IMG/VR virus record: IMGVR_UViG_3300027793_000078
Span: 1 to 64,000 of that record
Source: a virus
Reading direction: 5' to 3' (one strand)
DNA length: 64,000 nt
The notes below the pieces were generated by a model that made no database searches, was not told the DNA's origin, and was given only the letters and a program-made list of their open reading frames with translations. Every line of letters starts with the position of its first letter. Within the stretch, counting starts at the first letter, position 1. Of this stretch, positions 8,436-60,062 are shown one piece after another. Made by a program: the position numbers and the translations under genes.

Positions 8436-8512
8436 GGCCTCGTAGCTCAAATGGCTAGAGCATTCCGTTTCTACCGGACTGGTTGGGGGTTCAAATCCCT
8501 CCGGGGCTACCA
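8436..8512 (+). tRNA. tRNA-Arg(TCT)
   Basis: GGCCTCG/CGGGGCT acceptor, GCTC/GAGC D stem, TCCG-TTTCTAC-CGGA anticodon arm, GGGGG-TTCAAAT-CCCTC T arm, ACCA. Confidence 0.9.
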
Positions 8513-26460: not shown

Positions 26461-27891
26461 ATGATTAGTTTAAAAGAGTTATTGATGGAAGGAGCAAAAG
26501 AAAATGCTGCATTGGATTATTTGCAGCATTTGGTACGTAATGGGCCATTCAAAGGAAGAGTTTACCTTGCAGGCGGTGCTGTGCGTGATATGCAACTTGG
26601 TAAAGATCCAAAAGATTTGGATGTTGTTGTTACAGGCGGCATTGATGCTGGTATGGAATTTGCCAAATGGGCAACTCAATACATGAATAATTTCAAGGAA
26701 GGCAGCAATCCTGTGCTGTTTCCTACATATGGTACTGCTAAATTTACATTGAGTGGTATCGTTCATAATGGTATTGATTTGAGTGATGTCGATATTGAAG
26801 CAGTTGCAACCAGAAAAGAAAAATATAGTAGTGGCAGTCGCAAGCCAGAAGTAAGTTCTGGTGATCTTGCCGATGATGTTAATCGTAGAGATTTTACTGT
26901 TAATAGTCTGTTGAAAGACTTGACTAATGGTGAAATTTTGGATTTGACTGGATTGGGTAAACAAGATATTGCCGCTGGTATTATTCGCACTCCATTGAAT
27001 CCTGATATTATTTTCAGTGAAGATCCTCTTCGTATGTTGAGAGCGGTTCGATTTGCTTTCAAATATGATTGGGATTTGCCATTATTTATGATTCGGGCAT
27101 TGAAGCGCAATTCATCACAATTAAAAAATATTAGCAATGAACGTATTCGTGATGAACTGGATAAAATGCTTGTAACCGGTAGTCCAGATAGAGCAATTAA
27201 ATTGCTACGCATTACAGGATTGTTAAACTATATCATTCCAGAATTTAAAAGTGCATACAAGATGACACAAAATGTTCATCATAAGCATGATGTATTTACA
27301 CATACGTTGGAAGTTCTGAAGAAAACTAAACCTGTGTTGGCTCAACGTTTAATGGCATTGTTTCACGATATTGGCAAAACTGTTACTCGTAGTGTAACTC
27401 CTACAGGTGTTCATTTTTATGGACACGAAGACAGTGGTGCTGATATGGCAAAAGACATTATGAAGCGACTGAAATATCCAAATGAATTGGCTGACGCCGT
27501 TGCTTTGGGTGTTCAAAATCACATGCGCTTAAAGAGCGGCGGCGATGATGCAGTTAAACTGAGCGATAAAGCGTTGCGTAAATTTAAAGTTACTCTTGGC
27601 GATCAATTGGAAAATTTGCTTGATGTAATGCATGCAGATAATATTGCACATAGCGAAGCAAGCAGCATGCCAAATCAAATTGAAAATGTTAGAAAGCGTT
27701 TGGCAGCATTGCAAATGCCGACTGAAAAACCAAATTTACCTATCAATGGCAACGATTTGATTGCTTTGGGCTTGAAACCGGGTCCACAATTTGCGAAGAT
27801 TATGAGTGCAGTGACTGATGCTTGGTATGAAAACCCAAATATAAATCGTCAACAGGCACTTGAAATTGCTCGAAAAATTGTAAATTTATGA
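26461..27891 (+). CDS. cca: CCA-adding tRNA nucleotidyltransferase with HD domain
   Basis: GGAVRD, DLDVV, RRDFTVN, EDPLRMLRAVRF, SNERIRDE, HDIGK motifs. Confidence 0.92.
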   Translation: MISLKELLMEGAKENAALDYLQHLVRNGPFKGRVYLAGGAVRDMQLGKDPKDLDVVVTGGIDAGMEFAKWATQYMNNFKEGSNPVLFPTYGTAKFTLSGIVHNGIDLSDVDIEAVATRKEKYSSGSRKPEVSSGDLADDVNRRDFTVNSLLKDLTNGEILDLTGLGKQDIAAGIIRTPLNPDIIFSEDPLRMLRAVRFAFKYDWDLPLFMIRALKRNSSQLKNISNERIRDELDKMLVTGSPDRAIKLLRITGLLNYIIPEFKSAYKMTQNVHHKHDVFTHTLEVLKKTKPVLAQRLMALFHDIGKTVTRSVTPTGVHFYGHEDSGADMAKDIMKRLKYPNELADAVALGVQNHMRLKSGGDDAVKLSDKALRKFKVTLGDQLENLLDVMHADNIAHSEASSMPNQIENVRKRLAALQMPTEKPNLPINGNDLIALGLKPGPQFAKIMSAVTDAWYENPNINRQQALEIARKIVNL

Positions 27892-35351: not shown

Positions 35352-35855
35352 ATGAATCATAAAAATGAATATGGTTGCCTCATGGCAATCGTGCCTCCAA
35401 CTCACGGTCCACATATTGTTAAATTTGGTAAAACTGTAATACCTCAAAGTTTATTATACACAAAGCCAGACGATGACAGTTATGGCTATGATAACGAACC
35501 GCATGTAACTGTAAAATTTGGATATGCGCCCGATTTGAATAAGCAAGATTTGGCAACGATTTTACGAGGTATAAAACCTTTTAATATTGTTTTGCATGCA
35601 TTGACACAGTTTAACAACAGTGAATTTGATGTTGTTAAGTTTGATGCGGAAAGTCCCGTATTAAGAGAATTGAGAGCTAGAGCAGACAAATTTCCAAATA
35701 AAGATAAATTTCCAGAATACAAGCCGCACATGACTTTGGCGTATGTAAGACCAAATTCTTTTGGTCACATCAAAGAAAAACTAAATATTAGTGTTCCAAT
35801 TAAACATTTCAAATATAGTGGTGCAGACGGTAGAAAAATATTAATTCATTTGTAA
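35352..35855 (+). CDS. 2H phosphoesterase, Acb1/T4 57B-like
   Basis: EPHVTV and KPHMTLAY HxT motifs; YGCLM start; ~167 aa single domain. Confidence 0.7.
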   Translation: MNHKNEYGCLMAIVPPTHGPHIVKFGKTVIPQSLLYTKPDDDSYGYDNEPHVTVKFGYAPDLNKQDLATILRGIKPFNIVLHALTQFNNSEFDVVKFDAESPVLRELRARADKFPNKDKFPEYKPHMTLAYVRPNSFGHIKEKLNISVPIKHFKYSGADGRKILIHL

Positions 35856-36813: not shown

Positions 36814-37440
36814 CACTACTATACAGTACACCAAATGAAAAACATACAAACAATTGAATGTGAAAAAATGATGGATCATAAGGAGATACCCGCATAAATT
36901 TTTGCGTTAAAAACAGTATCGAACTTGATGATCCGAATGACCTCCACATTCGGATTTTTTATTCTAAAAGTAGCACTTGACAATCAGTAGGATACAGATT
37001 ATAAAAAAGCTATGAAAATCGTAATGATTAAAAATGTTGACATTGACATTGATAAGACTCGACTACGTGAAGTATGGCCGAAATATCTTTCACGCAATGA
37101 TGTTTTTAATATCAATAAAATCGAGGAGATTAGCGATACCAATGTAAATCTAGTGCTGGATGATGGTGATGTCCTGCTTGAAGTTCCTAAAAACAGTTTT
37201 ACTTTAAAATCCAAATGAGCCAAGCCGATCCATTTCGCGATATTGTAAAGCAAAATGTTGTTTTATACAGAGATTCTGAAGAACAACGTGAAAAAAGTTT
37301 TTTGGATAAATCAAACGCTCTAAAAGAGTGGAAAAAATATAATGAAGTTTACATTCGTGCCGCAAAATGTTTGGCACTTTGTGAAAATTCCAATTTGAAT
37401 GATATTGGAATTTTCGATGAAAAGCCAACTGAAAAAGCTG

Positions 37441-37664
37441 TTGACAAACAGCCGGACACAAAGTAAGCTGTTGAAAGATGAAGGTCGTGGTTGACCGCAG
37501 CATCTCTAAAACTTAAACAACCACATGTTCTTTCAAAAGATTGTTGACAGTGTAGCGAAGTGGTAGTAGATTGTGAGCATGATCTTTGAAATGTTGACGG
37601 CCTAAACAAAGCCGACAACAAGACAAAAAACAGTGTTGACAACAACGAAATGGTTCACTAAGCT
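37441..37664 (+). promoter_or_regulatory. Three tandem sigma70 promoters with boxA-like elements heading the RNA island
   Basis: TTGACA-N17-TAAGCT (37441), TTGACA-N17-TAGATT (37544), TTGACA-N17-TAAGCT (37636); TGTTCTTTCAAA 37526, TGATCTTTGAAA 37580. Confidence 0.7.
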
Positions 37665-37683
37665 GTTCAACACAATGAGTTTT

Positions 37684-37823
37684 GAGATGCACACAGCAAA
37701 CAAAAAAATGCCGTCTTCTCCTTCGGACATTAAATGAAGGTAGACTTGTCGATAGTCCATGAAAAAACACGATCAGAAGTTTAACTGTAAATAAAACTAA
37801 GCATATATTAATGTTGCGTCTCG
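37684..37823 (+). ncRNA. CAGCAA-stem RNA member 1 (carries a Tyr-like anticodon stem-loop)
   Basis: GAGATGC-ACA-CAGCAA...GCGTCTC-G; internal AGTTTAA-CTGTAAA-TAAAACT. Confidence 0.7.
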
Positions 37824-38135
37824 TTAAATTTCAGGCACTTGCCGATTGCCTTTGACACTATATAAGGGAAGTTCAATTAAAATCGGCAAAGTTTTTGCGG
37901 AGTTGGTAGCGTCACCGCCATATAAAAAAGATGCTGCTGGCACGTTCTCAATTGTCAATCTGACGAACGGCGAAGATAATGATTGACTGAAGGGTTGGTG
38001 CAGTATAACCTTGTGGTGTTAAAACCAACAAAACCACATAATTTAATTTTTGTTCTTTAAACATTTTTCGTAGGTCATAGATACGATACTATTTTTAAAA
38101 TATAGTATCAGGGGAGCGTAACCCTTATACGAAAT

Positions 38136-38250
38136 TAATCGGGTCCACAGCTAACGAAGCCGAAGAAGTGGATACAATAGTGACAAATGCAGCTTATACC
38201 TGCTAGGTTCAAATGGACGCATTTGAACTCGACGAAACTTGTCCCGATTA
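38136..38250 (+). ncRNA. Unclassified structured RNA with anticodon-like hairpin (TAT)
   Basis: TAATCGGG/CCCGATTA closing stem; GCAG-CTTATAC-CTGC; GTTCAAATG/CATTTGAAC. Confidence 0.5.
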
Positions 38251-38341
38251 CACTTTACTTTTTGTTCTTTTATATATGAATCTAAATAGGCAGTCGCAAA
38301 GTTTTTTTGATGTTTAGTCTGCCGTAACAATACTTATGTGT

Positions 38342-38803
38342 ATGCGTAAAAAAACATACACAGAAGAACAGTTGATATTAGCAGTCAAAACTAGTAAGAG
38401 TTATGCACAAGTTATAAAAAAACTTGGGCTTAAACAAGCTGGCGGAACTCAAAAAAACATCAAACATGAGATAAATAATTTGCAATGTGATTTATCACAC
38501 TTCCATTTCCAAAAATGGAATAAAGATAAAAAACTCAAAGAGTATGCTGATTATAAGCATTATAAATATGCTCGTCATCATTTAATACTTGAACGAGGAG
38601 AAAAGTGCGAGAACTGTAATAATTCTGAATGGTGTGGTAAAAAAATTACATTGGAAATACATCACATAGATTGTGATAGAAAAAATAACAATCCAAATAA
38701 TTTACAAGTTTTATGTCCAAATTGTCATTCCATAACACATGGATATAAAAGACGTAAAGGTGATTATGTATTAAAGTCATCAAATGGAAAAGTTATAAAA
38801 TAA
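38342..38803 (+). CDS. Free-standing HNH endonuclease
   Basis: CENC...LEIHHID...NN.PNNLQVLCPNCH; TACTTAT 4 nt upstream of ATG 38342. Confidence 0.88.
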   Translation: MRKKTYTEEQLILAVKTSKSYAQVIKKLGLKQAGGTQKNIKHEINNLQCDLSHFHFQKWNKDKKLKEYADYKHYKYARHHLILERGEKCENCNNSEWCGKKITLEIHHIDCDRKNNNPNNLQVLCPNCHSITHGYKRRKGDYVLKSSNGKVIK

Positions 38804-38811
38804 TTTATGAT

Positions 38812-38895
38812 GGGCATATGGCGTAAAGGCAGCCGCGTTCGACTTAAAATCGAATTCCGTAAGGAGTGCTGGTTCGAGTCCAGCTATGCCTACCA
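38812..38895 (+). tRNA. tRNA-Leu(TAA)
   Basis: GGGCATA/TATGCCT, TTCGA-CTTAAAA-TCGAA, long V arm, GCTGG-TTCGAGT-CCAGC, ACCA. Confidence 0.93.
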
Positions 38896-39558
38896 ATTTT
38901 TATCTGTTCAAATACGTAGGTCGGACCAACATCAATAGTCAAGTTGGAAACCAGCGTGAAGCTAATGACTATTTCGATGCTTCTGAATAGATAAATAAGT
39001 ATCTGACCTATACTTTAAGCTGTGGTGCGAATCCACAATGGTCACACTTTTAAAAAGTTGTTGACATTGGCGAAGAAAACGCTAAGATGTTCGCAACGAT
39101 GAAGATGGTAATCTTCGATGTTCTTTACAAAATTTTCGGGTGGCGGAACAAACAAATGTATGGTTGTAACGCACAATATCAATGAAGAATTGATATTGGT
39201 TGGAGTAAACAATTGATGTGTAAATCTATGGAGTCAACGGGTCGATCAACCCAATGATAAGCGTATATTCGTCGTAGCTCAAAATAATGACATACCGACG
39301 AAATGAAGGTGAAATCCCTTTCAGTCATTAACATATGAAGTAATTAATCATATGGACTGTGGATGAATAACATAGCAGTTGTTGAAACTTGAAGGTAATC
39401 ATTAGTCCTTCCCCACACTTTTTGCAAGGATGACAGATAGCAACTGTTCCGTAGCATTATATGCAGGATTTGAATTGGCAATCCAAATTCAAACATCGAC
39501 CGCTTTTTTAGAAAAAAAATTAATAAATTTTGTTCTCTGATACTATATATGATTTAAT

Positions 39559-39637
39559 GTAGGAATGGTGTAATTGGCTAACATCTCTCACTTTCACTGA
39601 GAAGACATGGTGGGTTCAAATCCCCCTTCCTATACCA
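39559..39637 (+). tRNA. tRNA-Glu(TTC)
   Basis: GTAGGAA/TTCCTAT, TCTCA-CTTTCAC-TGAGA, TTCAAAT loop, ACCA. Confidence 0.85.
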
Positions 39638-39822
39638 ATTTAAGGTTTGGTTGTTTGCCTAATCAAAAACAGCATGGTGTGGGATGAGCAATCCACAGAG
39701 TTGACAACGCTCTTTAAACGTTGTATGGTTGCGGGGCTTAAATGGTGCTGATGTTACCGGGTGGACATCGGAATCAATAGTAAACATCCGGGTTATTTTA
39801 AATAGTTCTTTTTTTATGAATT

Positions 39823-39902
39823 TGCGGGGACAAGCCGTGGGACGCTGACTACGCTCATAACGTAGGCGAAAGCTATGGTGTGTTCGACTCACACCTCCGC
39901 TA
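39823..39902 (+). tRNA. Atypical initiator-like tRNA(CAT) with extended variable arm, no encoded CCA
   Basis: T1:T72 mismatch, GCGGGG/CTCCGC, CTACG-CTCATAA-CGTAG, V region GCGAAAGCTATG, GTGTG-TTCGACT-CACAC. Confidence 0.7.
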
Positions 39903-39946
39903 TTTTGATTTAGTTCATTGACATAGTTTAAAGTTTTATATAGATT

Positions 39947-40018
39947 TGCGGGGTGGAGCAGTGGTAGCTCGCTACGCTCATAACGTAGAGGTCGCAGGTT
40001 CAATCCCTGCCCCCGCTA
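39947..40018 (+). tRNA. tRNA-fMet-like (CAT), no encoded CCA
   Basis: TGCGGGGTGGAGCAGTGGTAGCTCG initiator-type 5' half, 1:72 mismatch, CTACG-CTCATAA-CGTAG. Confidence 0.88.
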
Positions 40019-40180
40019 ATTTTGGATTATCCTATAAAGCTCTGATTAATTTTGTTTAGTAAAATCACTGCCGAATAACTAAAAGGCATTCGTATTATCC
40101 TCAATAGCAATATTGATGTTTAGACAAAATATAGATGATAATCTGCCGTGGATTGAATCAGCAAGGCTGCGGCAAATCAT

Positions 40181-40452
40181 TTTGTTTGGTAGTTTGGTCA
40201 ACAATAAAACTACTCTAGTAACAACTGCTAGTCTCAGTTGATGGGTTCCATATCCCTTAATAAAAATATGGCATTTGCCCTTTTTTGTAGAAAAAAGGCG
40301 ATGTTATCACTACATCTTAAAAGTGATTGTTGCATCTTAACATAAAAGATGCCCTAAGCAAAAGAACTCCGCTATAGTGAGTTCCAATAGATTCTCCTTT
40401 ACGTGCTAGAATGTTTCATGTTAAAGTGAAACAACTGAGAATCAGCCACAAA
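40181..40452 (+). ncRNA. Multi-hairpin RNA (seven hairpins within a TCTCAGTTG/CAACTGAGA closure)
   Basis: Direct inspection of inverted repeats; no ORF. Confidence 0.55.
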
Positions 40453-40485
40453 TTTATCTAGTAAGATTGTGGCACATTTTAAAAT

Positions 40486-40555
40486 GGCGAGGTAGCTCAG
40501 AGAAAGAGCGTCGGCACAGCCGAGGACGGTGGTTCAATTCCATCCCTTGCCACCA
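40486..40555 (+). ncRNA. tRNA-like RNA lacking a normal anticodon loop
   Basis: GGCGAGG/CCTTGCC-ACCA, GCTC/GAGC, TCGGC-ACA-GCCGA (3-nt loop), GGTGG-TTCAATT-CCATC. Confidence 0.85.
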
Positions 40556-40562
40556 AATTTTA

Positions 40563-40686
40563 GAGATACATTCAGCAATACAAATAAATAATAAACAGCT
40601 ATACGTGGTGTTCGAATCCCACCTTGCCCACTAGACGGGCAAGTAGCCGAGCGGTTCAGGCGGCTGTCAAATAAAAACGTATCTCG
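40563..40686 (+). ncRNA. CAGCAA-stem RNA member 2 containing a circularly permuted tRNA
   Basis: GAGATAC-ATT-CAGCAA...GTATCTC-G; 3' half 40595-40630 precedes 5' half 40637-40667. Confidence 0.85.
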
Positions 40687-40698
40687 TATTTTTACAAT

Positions 40699-40774
40699 GG
40701 TGCGGTGGCAGAAATGGCTATGCAGGAATTTGCAGAATTCCATCATGTAGGTTCAACTCCTACCCGTACCTCCA
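40699..40774 (+). tRNA. tRNA-Cys(GCA)
   Basis: GGTGCGG/CCGTACC, U73, GGAAT-TTGCAGA-ATTCC, TCCA. Confidence 0.92.
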
Positions 40775-40928
40775 GTTTTAACATTCAGTGACTATAAAAA
40801 AATTGCAGACGCAATGACCAAATAGAGGTTGGTTTTAGGTTTTAGTATGAGAAACGGAGTTTGTTGTAAACGTTTATTTCATATATTTATTCAATCATTC
40901 GTCGTCTATTACCGAATGTTTAATTTTT

Positions 40929-40981
40929 AAGACACTTGCAGCAAACATATTTTTTATTGAAAAAAACCAAACGGTGTCTTG
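40929..40981 (+). ncRNA. CAGCAA-stem RNA member 3 (minimal)
   Basis: AAGACAC-TTG-CAGCAA...GTGTCTT-G. Confidence 0.7.
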
Positions 40982-41264
40982 TTTTTGATTTTAGATTAGA
41001 GTTGGAGTTATCGTAGAAATCTGTGGAAGTTGTAATACACAGAGAGTATATTTAAGGAGCCGCTTGACAAACAGAAGGACAACGAGTATGTTTGTTCTAA
41101 GATAACTACACATCCCCTCGGTCAAAGGATATAATCTAATATGTTGGTTGTTCAACGGCAGTCCGTTATTTAAAAAACATCAATGGATGTGCCCGTGTTA
41201 AAACGGGATGAACGGTGAGAGATAGCAGTCCTACTGAAGGCGAAGACTGTAACAATCAATATTA

Positions 41265-41319
41265 TAGACACACACAGCAACTTTATATTCCAATAGGAAA
41301 CAAAAGAGAACGTGTCTAG
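41265..41319 (+). ncRNA. CAGCAA-stem RNA member 4 (minimal)
   Basis: TAGACAC-ACA-CAGCAA...GTGTCTA-G. Confidence 0.7.
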
Positions 41320-41324
41320 TTCAT

Positions 41325-41418
41325 GGCCTCGTAGTTTAATGGTAGAACGCAACGCTTATAACGTTGATAAGCTCCAGATTAGAGCACGGTCTCGGTTCGA
41401 ATCCGGGCGAGGCTACCA
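41325..41418 (+). tRNA. tRNA-Ile(TAT) with very long variable arm
   Basis: GGCCTCG/CGAGGCT, CAACG-CTTATAA-CGTTG, V region with GCTC-CAGATTA-GAGC hairpin, CTCGG-TTCGAAT-CCGGG, ACCA. Confidence 0.85.
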
Positions 41419-41423
41419 AATTT

Positions 41424-41586
41424 TACCGTGTGGTATTTTTGTGATACACGAATAATGGGTAGCATAAAGCAGATATACCACTGAGTGGTTTCAGATGGTA
41501 ATGTATCATACTATGTCCAACGTTCGGTGCTAATTGCGTCTGACCAACATACAATTAGTTGTGGGTTTGATTCCCATCCACGGTAC
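41424..41586 (+). ncRNA. Expanded tRNA-like RNA (acceptor + T arm, enlarged interior)
   Basis: TACCGTG/CACGGTA ends; GTGGG-TTTGATT-CCCAT T-like arm; CTAATTG/CAATTAG stem. Confidence 0.45.
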
Positions 41587-41723
41587 ACTTTCAATTCAAT
41601 CTTTGACAACATATCAATGTTGAGACTAGTCATCTTACCAAAACAAAACCAATCATATTTTGTCGGAGTTGTCGTGTTTTTAAAGTTTTGTGAACTGTTC
41701 GACAACAACATTGATACTTTAAT

Positions 41724-41800
41724 GGCTAGGTAGTCCAACGGCAGGAGACATCCGACTCAAAATCGGTCCAGTGTCGGTTCAAATCCGACCCTAGCTACCA
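41724..41800 (+). tRNA. tRNA-Leu(CAA), short variable loop
   Basis: GGCTAGG/CCTAGCT, CCGA-CTCAAAA-TCGG, 5-nt V loop, GTCGG-TTCAAAT-CCGAC, ACCA. Confidence 0.88.
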
Positions 41801-41995
41801 ATTTTTAATTCTGTGTATAGATAAACGGTATTGCTATTTGGTAATGACTGACAACAGTATATTATGAGTAAAATCGTAATAATTAGTAATACTAATACCT
41901 ACGGGGATATCAGACTGAACAAACAAATGAGTTTTTGAATTTGGGTTGATATTACAAATCTATTGATTGCGGGTCACAGAAATAAAACTCTTTAA

Positions 41996-42135
41996 AAGAT
42001 ACATACAGCAACAAATAAAGCAATCCAAACTGCATATACAGCGTGAAAATCCTGTTCCCTCTGCCAATTTTAACAGAGTATTTATAGAGGGATCGTCTAA
42101 CATTTAGGACAGCAGTACGCAAAAAATGTATCTTG
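41996..42135 (+). ncRNA. CAGCAA-stem RNA member 5 containing a circularly permuted tRNA
   Basis: AAGATAC-ATA-CAGCAA...GTATCTT-G; 3' half 42029-42066 (ends GCCA) precedes 5' half 42086-42116. Confidence 0.85.
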
Positions 42136-42141
42136 TTTTTT

Positions 42142-42287
42142 GAGTATACATGAACAGAATGAAAATTGTATGGCGACGAGTCCTGTAGTCATAAGACAAG
42201 ACGTGAGGACAAAGATATTATCTATAGGTAATATACGAAAAACGTAACGAAGTGTCTTTGTGGGTCAACTAATCCCACTGTATACTC
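42142..42287 (+). ncRNA. Unclassified structured RNA with T-arm-like 3' hairpin
   Basis: GAGTATACA/TGTATACTC closure; GTGGG-TCAACTAAT-CCCAC immediately 5' of the closing strand. Confidence 0.5.
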
Positions 42288-42938
42288 TATATTTTATATG
42301 AATATTATTCCAACTGATGTATTGAACAAAGGTTACAATGCATATGTTCATGTTGAAGGATGGAATAAAGCTGCCGTGTTTGTTTTTGTTGGATTTGAAA
42401 ACGGCCAAAAGAAATTAAAAACACCAAAAACAAATCGTATATTGTATACAAAAAATAATCTAATATATACAAAGCGATATCAATAAATGACAAAATCAAA
42501 ATATCATCCAGAACTTACAATTGCGCCGTGTCCAAATTGTAATTCTACAAATGTAGAAGAATCTGGTGATGATTTTGATGGTGATGTTAGTTGTAATGAT
42601 TGTACTTTAATTACTCCAATTTTTCTTGGAACCAAAAATGCAATAAATGCATGGAACAATAGAAAATATATGGATCAATGGTTCTTTTTAGATCCTGAAT
42701 TACATCAGATGGATTATCAGATTTAAACATTCAAAGTGGATGTTCAATGAAAGCATATTGTTTATGAACAGCAACATGCATGTGTAGGTGAGAAGTCAGA
42801 TATTTGTCGGTGGCAAACTCACATTAAACAAAGTCGAAACCGTCTTAGTCTTCGATATGCATTAGAAAATTAGTTTTCGTTTTGAACAGGAGACACCATT
42901 TTTGAATGTTCTTTTTCAAAATATTGATATTTATATGT

Positions 42939-58910: not shown

Positions 58911-60062
58911 ATGAACAAGACTTTTCCTACTCTTTACGCAAAAGACAGCAACAACAATACCCGTATTTGGTACATGGAACAAACGGGCCGTTTGTATCGA
59001 ACTCACAGTGGAGTCAAAAATGGACAAATTGTAACTAGCGAGTGGAGCACTGCCGAAGCCAAAAACGTAGGCAAGAAAAATGCAACAAGTGCAAGTGAAC
59101 AAGCCACTGCCGAAATTGAAGCGAAGTATAAAAAGCAATTAAAGACTGGCTATCATGAAGATGAAGCTGATGCTGCATCTGGCACCAATTATGTTGAGCC
59201 GATGTTGGCAAAGCCTTTGAAGGATTTGAGCAAAAAGCCAAATTTCCAAAAAGAAACTTGGGGTATGCAATGTAAATATAACGGCAATCGTTGTGTTGCT
59301 ACCAAGAATGGATTATTCACCCGCAAAGGTGAAAAGTATGCAAGTGTGCCACACATTGAAAACGCACTTAAGCCATTTTTTGACAAGCACCCTGATGCTG
59401 TGCTTGATGGTGAATTGTTTAATAACGAGCTTCGTCAGCAGCTAAATGAAATTAGCAAGCTGATTCGCAAGACCAAGCATATTCAAGCCTGTGATTTGGA
59501 GCAGAGTGAAAAGCTTGTAAAATTCTATATTTACGATGGATATGGATTTACGTCGTCCACCTATGATTTTAGTGAAACCGCTCCTTATAATGTTCGTAAA
59601 GCATTTATTGATGGTAATGTAATTCCGCATTCTGATTATTTTGTGAAAGTGACGACGCACATCGTCAAATCCGAAGAGCATATGAACGAACTGTTTAAAA
59701 CTCTTCTATCGGATCAACAGGAAGGCGGCATGCTTCGCAAGATGGACAGTGGCTATGAACACAAGCGCAGCAAGAATCTTGTAAAAGTAAAAGCTGAAGA
59801 CGATGATGAAGCTGTAATTCTTGATATTACAGATGGTGATGGCAATTGGAAGGGTGCCGCAACAAATGTTACGCTCAAATGGAAAGATATTACATTTGAT
59901 GCTGTTTTCAAGGGTAGCTATGAAGTTCGTGCTGCAATTCTTAAAAATAAAAATAAATGGATTGGCAAGACTGTTACCTTTTTGTATATGGGCTTGACTG
60001 GTTTGGGAACTCCAAATTATGCCCGTATTGATCCCGATAATTGTTTCAAAGCTGATCGATAA
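58911..60062 (+). CDS. ATP-dependent DNA ligase
   Basis: PMLA, KYNGNR, LDGEL, YIYD, EGGMLR, Y.HKRS..L.KVK. Confidence 0.9.
   Translation: MNKTFPTLYAKDSNNNTRIWYMEQTGRLYRTHSGVKNGQIVTSEWSTAEAKNVGKKNATSASEQATAEIEAKYKKQLKTGYHEDEADAASGTNYVEPMLAKPLKDLSKKPNFQKETWGMQCKYNGNRCVATKNGLFTRKGEKYASVPHIENALKPFFDKHPDAVLDGELFNNELRQQLNEISKLIRKTKHIQACDLEQSEKLVKFYIYDGYGFTSSTYDFSETAPYNVRKAFIDGNVIPHSDYFVKVTTHIVKSEEHMNELFKTLLSDQQEGGMLRKMDSGYEHKRSKNLVKVKAEDDDEAVILDITDGDGNWKGAATNVTLKWKDITFDAVFKGSYEVRAAILKNKNKWIGKTVTFLYMGLTGLGTPNYARIDPDNCFKADR

What the first reader, a model, noticed from the sequence alone, without database searches (positions are those of the whole stretch)
37684..42135. Five-member modular RNA family: covarying closing stem + invariant CAGCAA, carrying interchangeable tRNA-derived cargo
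Seen: five elements in the tRNA island share NAGAYRC-NNN-CAGCAA...GYRTCTN-G. The stems are GAGATGC/GCGTCTC (37684), GAGATAC/GTATCTC (40563), AAGACAC/GTGTCTT (40929), TAGACAC/GTGTCTA (41265) and AAGATAC/GTATCTT (41996). Base pairs covary (G-C, A-T, T-A at pair 1; TA/TA, CA/TG, TG/CG inside), while the 3-nt gap, CAGCAA and the 3' G are invariant. The enclosed cargo differs: two permuted tRNA bodies, a Tyr-like anticodon hairpin, and two short A/U-rich loops containing TTGAAAA or TTCCAA. Established: bacterial Y RNAs (YrlA) join a protein-binding terminal stem (Ro60/TROVE) to a tRNA-like domain. Inference: this is a Y-RNA-like but differently sequenced handle that docks tRNA mimics onto a phage or host protein, either as decoys for anticodon nucleases or as scaffolds for RNA repair or decay. 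I do not recognise the CAGCAA handle as a named family.
Basis: partly seen in the sequence, partly recalled or inferred. Interest (0 to 1): 0.92.

Follow-up and report, generated by a model that had tools for sequence, protein, structure and literature searches.

The report
Phage Ro60-like protein's partner RNAs
Five small RNA genes in the tRNA cluster of a large freshwater phage share one conserved "handle" and carry tRNA look-alike parts; the same handle sits beside a Ro60-shaped protein gene (DUF2828) in many other phages, so they are probably that protein's partner RNAs, a branch of the Ro60/Y-RNA particle that I found in neither Rfam nor the papers searched.

Summary
Five + strand elements (37684, 40563, 40929, 41265, 41996) share a covarying 7-bp closing stem, a 3-nt spacer, an invariant CAGCAA and a 3' G.

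The same module sits directly upstream of DUF2828 genes in 68 of 79 diverse viral loci. There, 151 of 201 CAGCAA sites are closed by a perfect stem plus G, against about 11 expected. In the reverse test, 42 of 47 viral records found by an RNA pattern alone carry DUF2828.

A model of a DUF2828 homolog matches only Ro60 structures at full length. The window's contig covers about 22% of its genome and lacks the gene. Its syntenic relative has the gene, preceded by two more copies, about 8 kb beyond where this contig ends.

Elements e2 and e5 carry circularly permuted tRNA bodies, as bacterial YrlA Y RNAs do.

Best reading: Y-RNA-like partner RNAs of a Ro60-like phage protein that display tRNA parts. 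Binding and function are inferred, not shown.

Rfam holds no family for these RNAs. The nearest is the Dictyostelium Class I RNA (same CUUACAGCAA motif), which scores below threshold.

This scan has noted the same RNA–protein pairing before on other DNA: 282 notes in at least 234 genomes. The literature I searched does not describe it.

The parts
37684..37823 (+). e1: handle RNA with long cargo. 5' strand 37684-37690, spacer ACA, CAGCAA 37694-37699, 3' strand 37816-37822, G 37823. The cargo includes a CUGUAAA (Tyr-type) loop at 37785-37791.
   Evidence: The ortholog in relative G001 is about 90% identical, has a 25-nt extra hairpin, and has one A-C mismatch in the stem.
40563..40686 (+). e2: handle RNA carrying a circularly permuted tRNA-like body (40596-40666). 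Order of parts: T arm, acceptor stem closed by a 7-nt loop, D arm. The anticodon stem opens into the handle.
   Evidence: z -2.55. ARAGORN on the doubled sequence. Compensatory changes in the acceptor, T and D stems against the G001 ortholog. Weak YrlA hit of 18.9 bits.
40929..40981 (+). e3: minimal 53-nt handle RNA with a U6/A6 hairpin as cargo.
   Evidence: Model R1 scores it 45.4 bits, but it is in the seed alignment. Its G001 ortholog, which is not in the seed, scores 46.7 bits. RF01414 scores 20.7 bits.
41265..41319 (+). e4: minimal 55-nt handle RNA with a UUCC-AAUA-GGAA hairpin as cargo. tRNA-Ile follows 5 nt downstream.
   Evidence: (z -2.99). (45.6 bits, in the seed).
41996..42135 (+). 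e5: handle RNA carrying a permuted tRNA-like body (42029-42116). Its closed acceptor-like stem ends in G-CCA.
   Evidence: (cloverleaf-like minimum-energy fold, z -2.88). Compensatory changes in the acceptor-like and anticodon-like stems against G001, with the handle itself identical.
37470..37680 (+). Cluster of TTGACA-type promoter-like boxes that opens the + strand tRNA/ncRNA island just before e1. Further TTGACA boxes lie at 39061, 39701, 39918 and 41064.
   Evidence: These are consensus matches only. No + strand terminator-like site was found in 37300-42400.

Best explanation
The five elements are genes for small non-coding RNAs of a widespread family that has no name in Rfam or in the papers I searched. 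Its constant part is a protein-binding 'handle': a 7-bp helix whose sequence is free to covary except for a near-invariant G-C at pair 3; a 3-nt spacer (consensus UUA); single-stranded CAGCAA on the 5' side; and a G directly after the 3' strand.

The handle is most likely bound by the phage's DUF2828 protein, a Ro60-shaped HEAT-repeat ring with a vWA/MIDAS domain, in the way Y RNAs bind Ro60. The variable part is the effector module. It is a circularly permuted tRNA body (e2, e5, as in bacterial YrlA), an anticodon-arm look-alike (e1's Tyr-type loop), or a short hairpin (e3, e4).

The RNAs are probably transcribed with the tRNAs from the island's many promoters and cut out of the polycistronic precursor. 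The resulting particle would present tRNA parts to tRNA-recognising enzymes. Two roles seem most plausible: decoys or sensors for host anticodon nucleases, or tethers that bring a nuclease or repair enzyme to the ring, as Y RNA tethers PNPase.

Shown here:
- the family exists;
- the stem covaries;
- copies are strand-specific;
- the family is linked to DUF2828 in both directions;
- DUF2828 has a Ro60-like fold;
- the tRNA-like cargo keeps its pairing through compensatory changes.

Inferred:
- physical binding;
- processing from the precursor;
- the biological role.
For: (1) The five copies are real and non-random.

(2) The relative G001 keeps e1, e2, e3 and e5 at the same places in its tRNA island. 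It also has two more copies, one degenerate, between a TTGACA promoter and a DUF2828+vWA gene.

(3) An unbiased test was run over 79 DUF2828 loci whose proteins are 41-100% identical. On the gene strand, the 700 nt upstream hold 201 CAGCAA sites, and 151 of them are closed by a perfect 7-bp stem plus G; 10.7 are expected with a shuffled 5' strand. On the opposite strand, over the whole loci, 2 of 186 sites are closed, against 8.1 expected.

(4) Six of the seven pairs change on both sides, 118 cells in all, and 0 of 500 shuffles reach the observed covariation score. Sliding the partner strand destroys the pairing.

(5) In the reverse test, one stem variant of the RNA pattern finds 95 viral stretches. 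I estimate about 1-2 by chance. Of 47 records searched, 42 carry DUF2828, and 12 of the 13 that are at least 90% complete do. The covariance model hits 5 of 5 large DUF2828 phages. In some of these the copies lie in clusters far from the gene, as in this window.

(6) An AlphaFold model of DUF2828 homolog P0004 has pLDDT 76.7 and pTM 0.76. Its 13 best PDB matches are all Ro60 or Rsr over the full length, with E from 1e-6 to 6e-4 and TM about 0.5.

(7) The module is kept under circular permutation. In other loci it caps the anticodon arm of ordinary tRNA bodies as a hairpin whose loop begins with the conserved G: 67 such cases on the gene strand against 3 on the other.

(8) The tRNA-like bodies of e2 and e5 keep their pairing through compensatory changes between G000 and G001. 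Long copies elsewhere give sub-threshold YrlA hits of 36-40 bits.

(9) Anticodon-loop-like 7-nt loops are enriched in short cargos: 43 of 98 against 10 +/- 2.8. They are mostly Asn GUU, Lys UUU, Tyr GUA and Ser GCU types.

(10) Contigs from four freshwater metatranscriptome runs cover the island at very uneven depth, and e3 and e4 lie in high-depth pieces. This is a weak hint only.
Against: - No DUF2828 or TROVE gene lies on this 78-kb contig. By synteny the gene would lie about 8 kb past the contig's end, so its presence in this phage is inferred.
- Binding is untested.
- In G001, e1 and e2 each carry an A-C mismatch, in e2 at the otherwise near-invariant pair 3. Not every copy need be functional.
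- One complete 75-kb phage has a lone promoter-RNA-terminator copy and no DUF2828. The RNA may therefore use a host protein or act alone.
- Many of the 79 loci are close relatives, so the counts overstate the number of independent events.
- The RNA-library contigs cannot show ends, strand or level, and may include DNA.
- The canonical Y-RNA and YrlA models do not reach their thresholds.
Confidence: 0.72

Rival explanations
1. The RNAs are real, but the handle is read by some other protein, of the host or the phage, for example an RRM-type or RNA-processing protein. The adjacency to DUF2828 would then reflect a shared pathway or co-regulation rather than direct binding.
For: A complete phage carries a lone copy with its own promoter and terminator and no DUF2828. 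In Dictyostelium, a Class I RNA with the same motif is reported to bind the RRM protein Rnp1A (PMC7919456). No binding data exist for DUF2828.
Against: The two-way genomic linkage is very tight: 68 of 79 loci and 42 of 47 records. The protein has the fold of the one family known to pair with terminal-stem RNAs encoded next to it. DUF2828 also occurs in bacteria, so a host copy could serve the lone RNA.
Confidence: 0.13
2. e2 and e5 are circularly permuted tRNA genes, as in the red alga Cyanidioschyzon merolae. Their transcripts would be joined at the ends and reopened at the acceptor stem to give working tRNAs, and the closing stem would be only the joining signal.
For: The 3' half precedes the 5' half, and ARAGORN recognises the permuted e2. 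e5 encodes G-CCA followed by a tRNA-like trailer. The phage encodes a CCA-adding enzyme, a 2H phosphoesterase and an ATP-dependent ligase.
Against: Joining the ends would leave a 45-nt insert in the anticodon loop rather than a 7-nt loop, and there is no bulge-helix-bulge motif. The identical handle carries cargo that is not a tRNA (e3, e4, and most of the family). The handle also occurs as a hairpin in place of the anticodon loop in unpermuted tRNA bodies, so these bodies lack an anticodon by design.
Confidence: 0.05
3. The stems are processing or termination signals (RNase III or RNase E sites, or terminators) that punctuate the tRNA operon. On this view they are not genes for separate RNAs.
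For: The elements lie between tRNAs in a multi-promoter island. e3 and e5 are followed by U-rich runs.
Against: The single-stranded CAGCAA is invariant, and the G after the stem is present in all five window copies and was a required part of the copy definition in the wider set. The scan finds no + strand terminator, and the 3' flank is not U-rich across the family. A processing signal would not explain the linkage to DUF2828, the structured and conserved cargo, or the permuted hairpin form.
Confidence: 0.05
4. The elements are small mobile or selfish DNA elements of the MITE type with terminal inverted repeats, which have picked up tRNA fragments.
For: Multiple copies with 7-nt inverted termini and variable insides. 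An HNH endonuclease gene lies in the island.
Against: The termini covary rather than being conserved. Closed copies show an extreme strand bias towards the transcribed strand: 151 in the 700 nt upstream on the gene strand against 2 on the opposite strand over the whole loci. The copies sit at orthologous places in G000 and G001. The module also works as a hairpin inside tRNA bodies.
Confidence: 0.03

Closest known systems
Ro60 (Rsr/TROVE2) with Y RNAs, especially bacterial and phage YrlA/YrlB (Rfam RF02553; Chen et al. 2014, PMC4201824; Thermus phage phiLo Ro60 with Yrl1/Yrl2, PMC12135203)
   Same: - Small RNAs are encoded next to, usually upstream of, a ring-shaped HEAT-repeat plus vWA protein gene, often several per genome.
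- A stem formed by the 5' and 3' ends acts as the constant module.
- The second module is a tRNA-like domain with T arm, D arm and a closed acceptor stem, as in e2 and e5.
- M. smegmatis YrlA, which has a 7-bp acceptor stem, is cut by RNase P and receives CCA. e5 has such a stem ending in GCCA.
   Different: - The protein belongs to Pfam DUF2828 (PF11443 plus PF25043), not TROVE (PF05731). The TROVE model finds nothing in G000 or G001.
- The handle has a different sequence: CAGCAA beside a plain 7-bp helix. The reported Ro-binding features are a bulged helix, or the CGAA motif used to pick out Yrl1 and Yrl2 in phiLo.
- YrlA scores only 18.9 bits on e2, against a threshold of 69.
- Many members are minimal RNAs of 42-70 nt, or carry anticodon-arm mimics rather than a tRNA body.
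Class I RNAs of dictyostelid social amoebae (Rfam RF01414; Kjellin et al. 2021, PMC7919456)
   Same: - RNAs of about 42-65 nt with a short terminal stem that covaries.
- A conserved outer G-C pair.
- A conserved unpaired motif directly 3' of the 5' strand. The Rfam consensus is G-stem-CUUACAGCAA ... stem-CUG; the phage consensus is xAG-stem-UUACAGCAA ... stem-CUxG.
- A variable remainder.
- Many copies per genome.
   Different: - The score is below threshold: e3 reaches 20.7 bits against 41.5, and the other four copies give no hit.
- The host is a phage, not an amoeba, and there is no DUSE promoter.
- Class I RNAs are reported as unique to dictyostelids, with an RRM protein as partner.
- Whether dictyostelids have a DUF2828 protein could not be tested here.
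- The long tRNA-like cargos have no described counterpart.
Circularly permuted tRNA genes (Cyanidioschyzon merolae and other algae; from my own knowledge, not checked in a paper here)
   Same: The 3' half of a tRNA body is encoded upstream of the 5' half, and flanking complementary sequences bring the ends together.
   Different: - Rejoining the ends rebuilds no bulge-helix-bulge motif and no anticodon loop.
- The flanks are a conserved protein-type module shared with cargos that are not tRNAs.

Membership tests
CAGCAA-handle RNAs linked to DUF2828 (no published name found) | 7-bp closing helix, 3-nt spacer, CAGCAA, and a G after the 3' strand | tested here: met
   All five copies meet it. The family consensus comes from 139 unique copies.
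CAGCAA-handle RNAs linked to DUF2828 (no published name found) | The helix is kept by covariation, not by sequence | tested here: met
   Six of seven pairs change on both sides, 0 of 500 shuffles reach the score, and slid controls fail. In the unbiased closure test, 151 of 201 sites are closed against 10.7 expected.
CAGCAA-handle RNAs linked to DUF2828 (no published name found) | A DUF2828 (Ro60-like + vWA) gene in the same genome | tested here: inconclusive
   Absent from the 78-kb contig, which is 22% complete. Present in the syntenic relative G001 about 8 kb beyond the point where this contig ends. Attempts to extend the contig failed.
CAGCAA-handle RNAs linked to DUF2828 (no published name found) | On the transcribed strand, among tRNA genes or beside the protein gene | tested here: met
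   All five copies are on the + strand with the 10 tRNA genes. In complete relatives, clusters lie both far from the gene and next to it.
Y RNA / YrlA (Rfam RF02553) | Reaches the Rfam gathering score | tested here: not met
   e2 scores 18.9 bits against 69. The other copies give no hit.
Y RNA / YrlA (Rfam RF02553) | Encoded with a TROVE-domain Ro60 ortholog | tested here: not met
   PF05731 finds nothing in G000 or G001. The linked protein is DUF2828, which is Ro60-like by fold only.
Y RNA / YrlA (Rfam RF02553) | tRNA-like domain with T arm, D arm and a closed acceptor stem, attached to a terminal stem | tested here: met
   e2 and e5 have it. e1, e3 and e4 do not.
Y RNA / YrlA (Rfam RF02553) | Bound by Ro60 in cells | not testable with these tools
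   Needs immunoprecipitation or a gel-shift assay.
Dictyostelium Class I RNA (Rfam RF01414) | Reaches the Rfam gathering score | tested here: not met
   e3 scores 20.7 bits against 41.5. There is no hit for e4 or for 9 other loci at E<=1.
Dictyostelium Class I RNA (Rfam RF01414) | Short terminal stem plus a conserved 11-nt motif (..UUACAGCAA) next to its 5' strand, with a variable rest of about 60 nt | tested here: met
   The alignment to the Rfam consensus is and the family logo. The published description is in PMC7919456. The length fits e3 and e4 only.
Circularly permuted tRNA gene | Joining the transcript's ends restores a normal anticodon arm, giving a functional tRNA | tested here: not met
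   Permuted e2 has a 45-nt insert in the anticodon loop. ARAGORN does not call e5.
Intrinsic terminator | G+C-rich hairpin followed by a U run on the transcribed strand | tested here: not met
   No + strand terminator-like site was found in 37300-42400.

The most novel reading that the evidence does not exclude
The CAGCAA-handle RNAs of phages and giant viruses and the unexplained Class I RNAs of social amoebae may be one RNA family. Its common partner would be the DUF2828 branch of Ro60-like ring proteins. That would make this a second, very large Ro/Y-RNA-type particle spanning viruses, bacteria and eukaryotes. In phages, its interchangeable modules (tRNA bodies without anticodons, and anticodon arms without bodies) would serve as protein-mounted decoys or sensors against host anticodon nucleases.
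Probability: 0.3. Interest if true: 0.92.

Novelty: new variant of a known kind. Interest (0 to 1): 0.8.

Why it matters
DUF2828 is a very large family of unknown function. One capped search scored more than 6,500 homologs, from phages, giant viruses and bacteria. A likely RNA partner gives the family a concrete and testable activity.

Ro60/Y-RNA biology would gain a second, sequence-distinct handle, with natural 'swap-in' modules that show what the particle presents: whole tRNA bodies or bare anticodon arms. That bears on how phages protect or police tRNAs during infection.

The shared CUUACAGCAA motif also offers a testable lead for the Dictyostelium Class I RNAs, whose function has been open since 2004.

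The minimal 42-60-nt handle could also be useful as a tag for tethering RNAs to a protein.

Tried and rejected
- Megablast of the island against GenBank phages found no match.
- Rfam at gathering thresholds finds only tRNAs. At loose E-values it gives only sub-threshold YrlA and Class I hits.
It was redone later with a stem-specific pattern.
- The end of this contig has no DNA similarity to G001's DUF2828 region or to the G002 contig that carries a close DUF2828 gene.
- A metagenome scan with the contig's last sizeable ORF found only distant relatives.
- For these reasons I could not reach this phage's own DUF2828 gene.
- RtcB is present in only 1 of 5 genomes checked, so I do not claim an RtcB link.
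- Rfam finds no group I intron in the split DUF2828 gene of G001.
- The ESM Atlas look-up gave only DUF2828 clusters from viruses and bacteria, with nothing on dictyostelids.
- Burroughs and Aravind 2016 (NAR) is not held, so I could not check what it says about DUF2828.
- The recurring ...ACACUUU ends in the island are not enriched over chance, and the folds there are inconclusive.
- Metatranscriptome contigs cover e1, e2 and e5 thinly or not at all in some runs. That is not evidence of absence.
- I sent no protein-complex job, because the partner in question is an RNA.

Full report
**What is there.** The window is the first 64 kb of a 78,477-base IMG/VR phage contig that CheckV rates 22% complete, so it is a fragment of a jumbo phage. 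Positions 37.5-44.6 kb form a + strand island with nine tRNA genes by ARAGORN (a tenth lies at 8436), one more by Rfam alone, many TTGACA-type promoter boxes and an HNH endonuclease ORF. The whole contig has no further exact copy. Each copy is closed downstream by the complementary 7-nt strand followed by G. Their sizes are 140, 124, 53, 55 and 140 nt.

**Cargo.**
- e2: when its sequence is doubled so that the permuted order can be read, ARAGORN calls it a tRNA cloverleaf with the handle as a 45-nt insert in the anticodon loop.
- e5: it folds into a four-way cloverleaf whose closed acceptor-like stem ends in G-CCA.
- e1: it carries a CUGUAAA loop, the tRNA-Tyr type, at 37785.
- e3 and e4: these are minimal, with short hairpins.

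**The relative.** One IMG/VR contig (G001, 108,841 bases) is collinear with this one at about 80% nucleotide identity. Its tRNA island keeps e1, e2, e3 and e5.
- The handles are nearly unchanged, while the tRNA-like bodies of e2 and e5 differ by compensatory changes in the acceptor, T, D and anticodon-like stems.
- e1 is 90% identical apart from an inserted hairpin.
- G001's e1 and e2 each carry one A-C mismatch in the helix.
- G001 holds two further copies, one of them degenerate, about 40 kb downstream. They lie between a TTGACA promoter and a gene that matches Pfam DUF2828 and has a vWA/MIDAS domain (DTSGSMSG).
- That gene is split by an endonuclease-like ORF.
- By synteny, the gene's position lies about 8 kb beyond the end of this window's contig. 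Its absence from the contig therefore says little.

**Is the link general?** I took 79 viral loci that encode DUF2828 proteins 41-100% identical to a close homolog. At every CAGCAA I asked, without preselection, whether the 7 nt at -10..-4 find a perfect partner followed by G within 260 nt.
- On the gene strand, in the 700 nt upstream of the gene, 151 of 201 sites are closed. With a shuffled 5' strand, 10.7 are expected.
- On the opposite strand, over the whole loci, 2 of 186 sites are closed, against 8.1 expected.
- 68 of the 79 loci have at least one such copy, often as tandem arrays of two to six.
- Several of the other loci have CAGCAG variants or copies downstream of the gene.

The helix covaries strongly: six of seven pairs change on both sides, and pair 3 is almost always G-C. 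The family consensus is xAGAYRC-UUA-CAGCAA ... GYRUCUx-G.

A covariance model built from 63 short copies finds the non-seed copies in G001 (46.7 and 23.1 bits), and no further copy in the window scores above E = 1. It hits all five large DUF2828 phages tested. These include a 365-kb complete genome with one copy at the gene and five in a cluster 130-155 kb away, the arrangement inferred for this phage.

In the reverse direction, a pattern for one stem variant of the RNA alone finds 95 viral stretches, two of them in giant-virus bins. Of 47 searchable records, 42 carry DUF2828, and 12 of the 13 that are at least 90% complete do.

**The protein.** An AlphaFold model of the homolog P0004 has pLDDT 76.7 and pTM 0.76. 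Its 13 best PDB matches are all Ro60 or Rsr structures aligned over the full length (Thermus phage phiLo, Xenopus, Deinococcus and human). Isolated vWA domains follow only after those. The TROVE Pfam model itself does not match. DUF2828 is therefore a Ro60-like ring with a vWA domain, but a separate sequence family.

**The handle as a module.** In other loci, ordinary unpermuted tRNA bodies carry the same module as a hairpin in place of the anticodon loop. The order there is 3' strand, G, a few loop bases, 5' strand, spacer, CAGCAA. There are 67 such cases on the gene strand and 3 on the other. The helix, the CAGCAA and the G are thus conserved whichever way the RNA is permuted. This fits a protein-binding module and does not fit a mere end-joining or processing signal.

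Short cargos are enriched in hairpins with anticodon-like 7-nt loops: 43 of 98, against 10 +/- 2.8 in shuffles. These are mostly Asn GUU, Lys UUU, Tyr GUA and Ser GCU types, although many come from related phages. Long cargos elsewhere give sub-threshold YrlA hits of 36-40 bits, and ARAGORN calls four of the doubled long copies as permuted tRNAs with the handle as an insert.

**Expression.** Contigs from four freshwater metatranscriptome runs cover the island at 99-100% identity and at very uneven depth. In run X12, for example, depth is 5-7 over the HNH ORF but 61 over 40990-41658. e3 and e4 lie in high-depth pieces. Contigs cannot show ends or strand, and DNA may be present in such libraries, so this is only a weak hint.

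**What is known.** Ro60 proteins with Y RNAs encoded beside them are established in bacteria and some phages, and the YrlA class has a tRNA-like domain (PMC4201824; PMC12135203). A survey of jumbo phages mentions TROVE proteins only in passing (PMC7824862). A full-text search for DUF2828 returns five papers, none of which, judging by title and abstract, concerns RNA or phages. Rfam 15 has no family that captures these RNAs.

The nearest named family is the Dictyostelium Class I RNA. Its Rfam consensus (G-stem-CUUACAGCAA ... stem-CUG) has the same layout and motif, and it aligns to e3 at 20.7 bits, below the 41.5 threshold. Class I RNAs are described as unique to dictyostelids (PMC7919456). I could not test whether dictyostelids have DUF2828.

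**Earlier notes of this scan.** After I had found the DUF2828 link myself, the scan's notebook showed 282 earlier AI notes, in at least 234 genomes, that describe the same pairing. I treated these as leads only. They prompted me to look more closely at the Class I hit, which I had already seen.

**Verdict.** Binding, processing and the biological role (nuclease decoy, or tether for a nuclease or repair enzyme) remain inferences. This is a new variant of a known kind, a Ro60/Y-RNA-type particle, and not a member of the YrlA or Class I families by their own thresholds.

Noticed in passing
window 40486-40552: A tRNA-like gene directly upstream of e2. Rfam's tRNA model calls it (51.9 bits) but ARAGORN does not. 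Its anticodon arm appears to end in a 3-nt loop (UCGGC-ACA-GCCGA), so it would be a tRNA body without an anticodon.
   Followed up: no
window 39144-39379, 40099-40470, 40990-41260, 41440-41580: Non-coding stretches of the island with no tRNA or Rfam call. They carry the highest contig depth in three or four metatranscriptome runs. 38136-38250 also folds well, with an 8-bp terminal stem (z -2.9). These may be further small RNAs.
   Followed up: partly
window 40139-40170: A possible degenerate hairpin-form handle (UAAUCUG-CCG-UGGAUUG-AAU-CAGCAA) with three G-U pairs and no G after the 3' strand. It is not convincing.
   Followed up: partly
window 26461-27891, 35352-35855, 58911-60062: Genes of tRNA- or RNA-end-handling type lie near the island: a CCA-adding enzyme, a 2H (LigT-like) phosphoesterase, and an ATP-dependent ligase that matches the DNA_ligase_A_M domain.
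   Followed up: partly
L016 7608-10856 (G001 77607-80855): The DUF2828 gene of the relative is split into 133-aa and 372-aa parts by a 283-aa cysteine-rich endonuclease-like ORF, and a paralogous ORF follows the gene. Rfam finds no group I intron there.
   Followed up: partly
L120 990-1100 (IMGVR_UViG_3300021400_000864, 75 kb, complete): A lone handle RNA with a Lys-type CUUUUAA loop, its own TTGACA promoter and a clear hairpin-plus-U terminator, in a complete phage with no DUF2828 gene.
   Followed up: partly
L049 2456-2570 and 2711-2825; L039 2692-2811: Ordinary tRNA bodies of 115-120 nt, called by Rfam's tRNA model, in which the anticodon loop is replaced by the handle as a hairpin. This is the circular permutation of e2 and e5.
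   Followed up: yes
L102, L178 (GVMAG giant-virus bins): The stem-specific handle pattern also hits contigs binned as giant viruses, three times in one of them. These records were not held, so DUF2828 could not be checked there.
   Followed up: no
G006:C1:108866-109861: In one complete 245-kb phage an RtcB ligase gene lies directly beside the handle-RNA array that surrounds its DUF2828 gene. Four other genomes checked have no RtcB.
   Followed up: partly
window 38336-38803 versus L006 14060-14547: An HNH endonuclease ORF sits at different places in the tRNA islands of the two related phages, which suggests a mobile homing-type gene.
   Followed up: no
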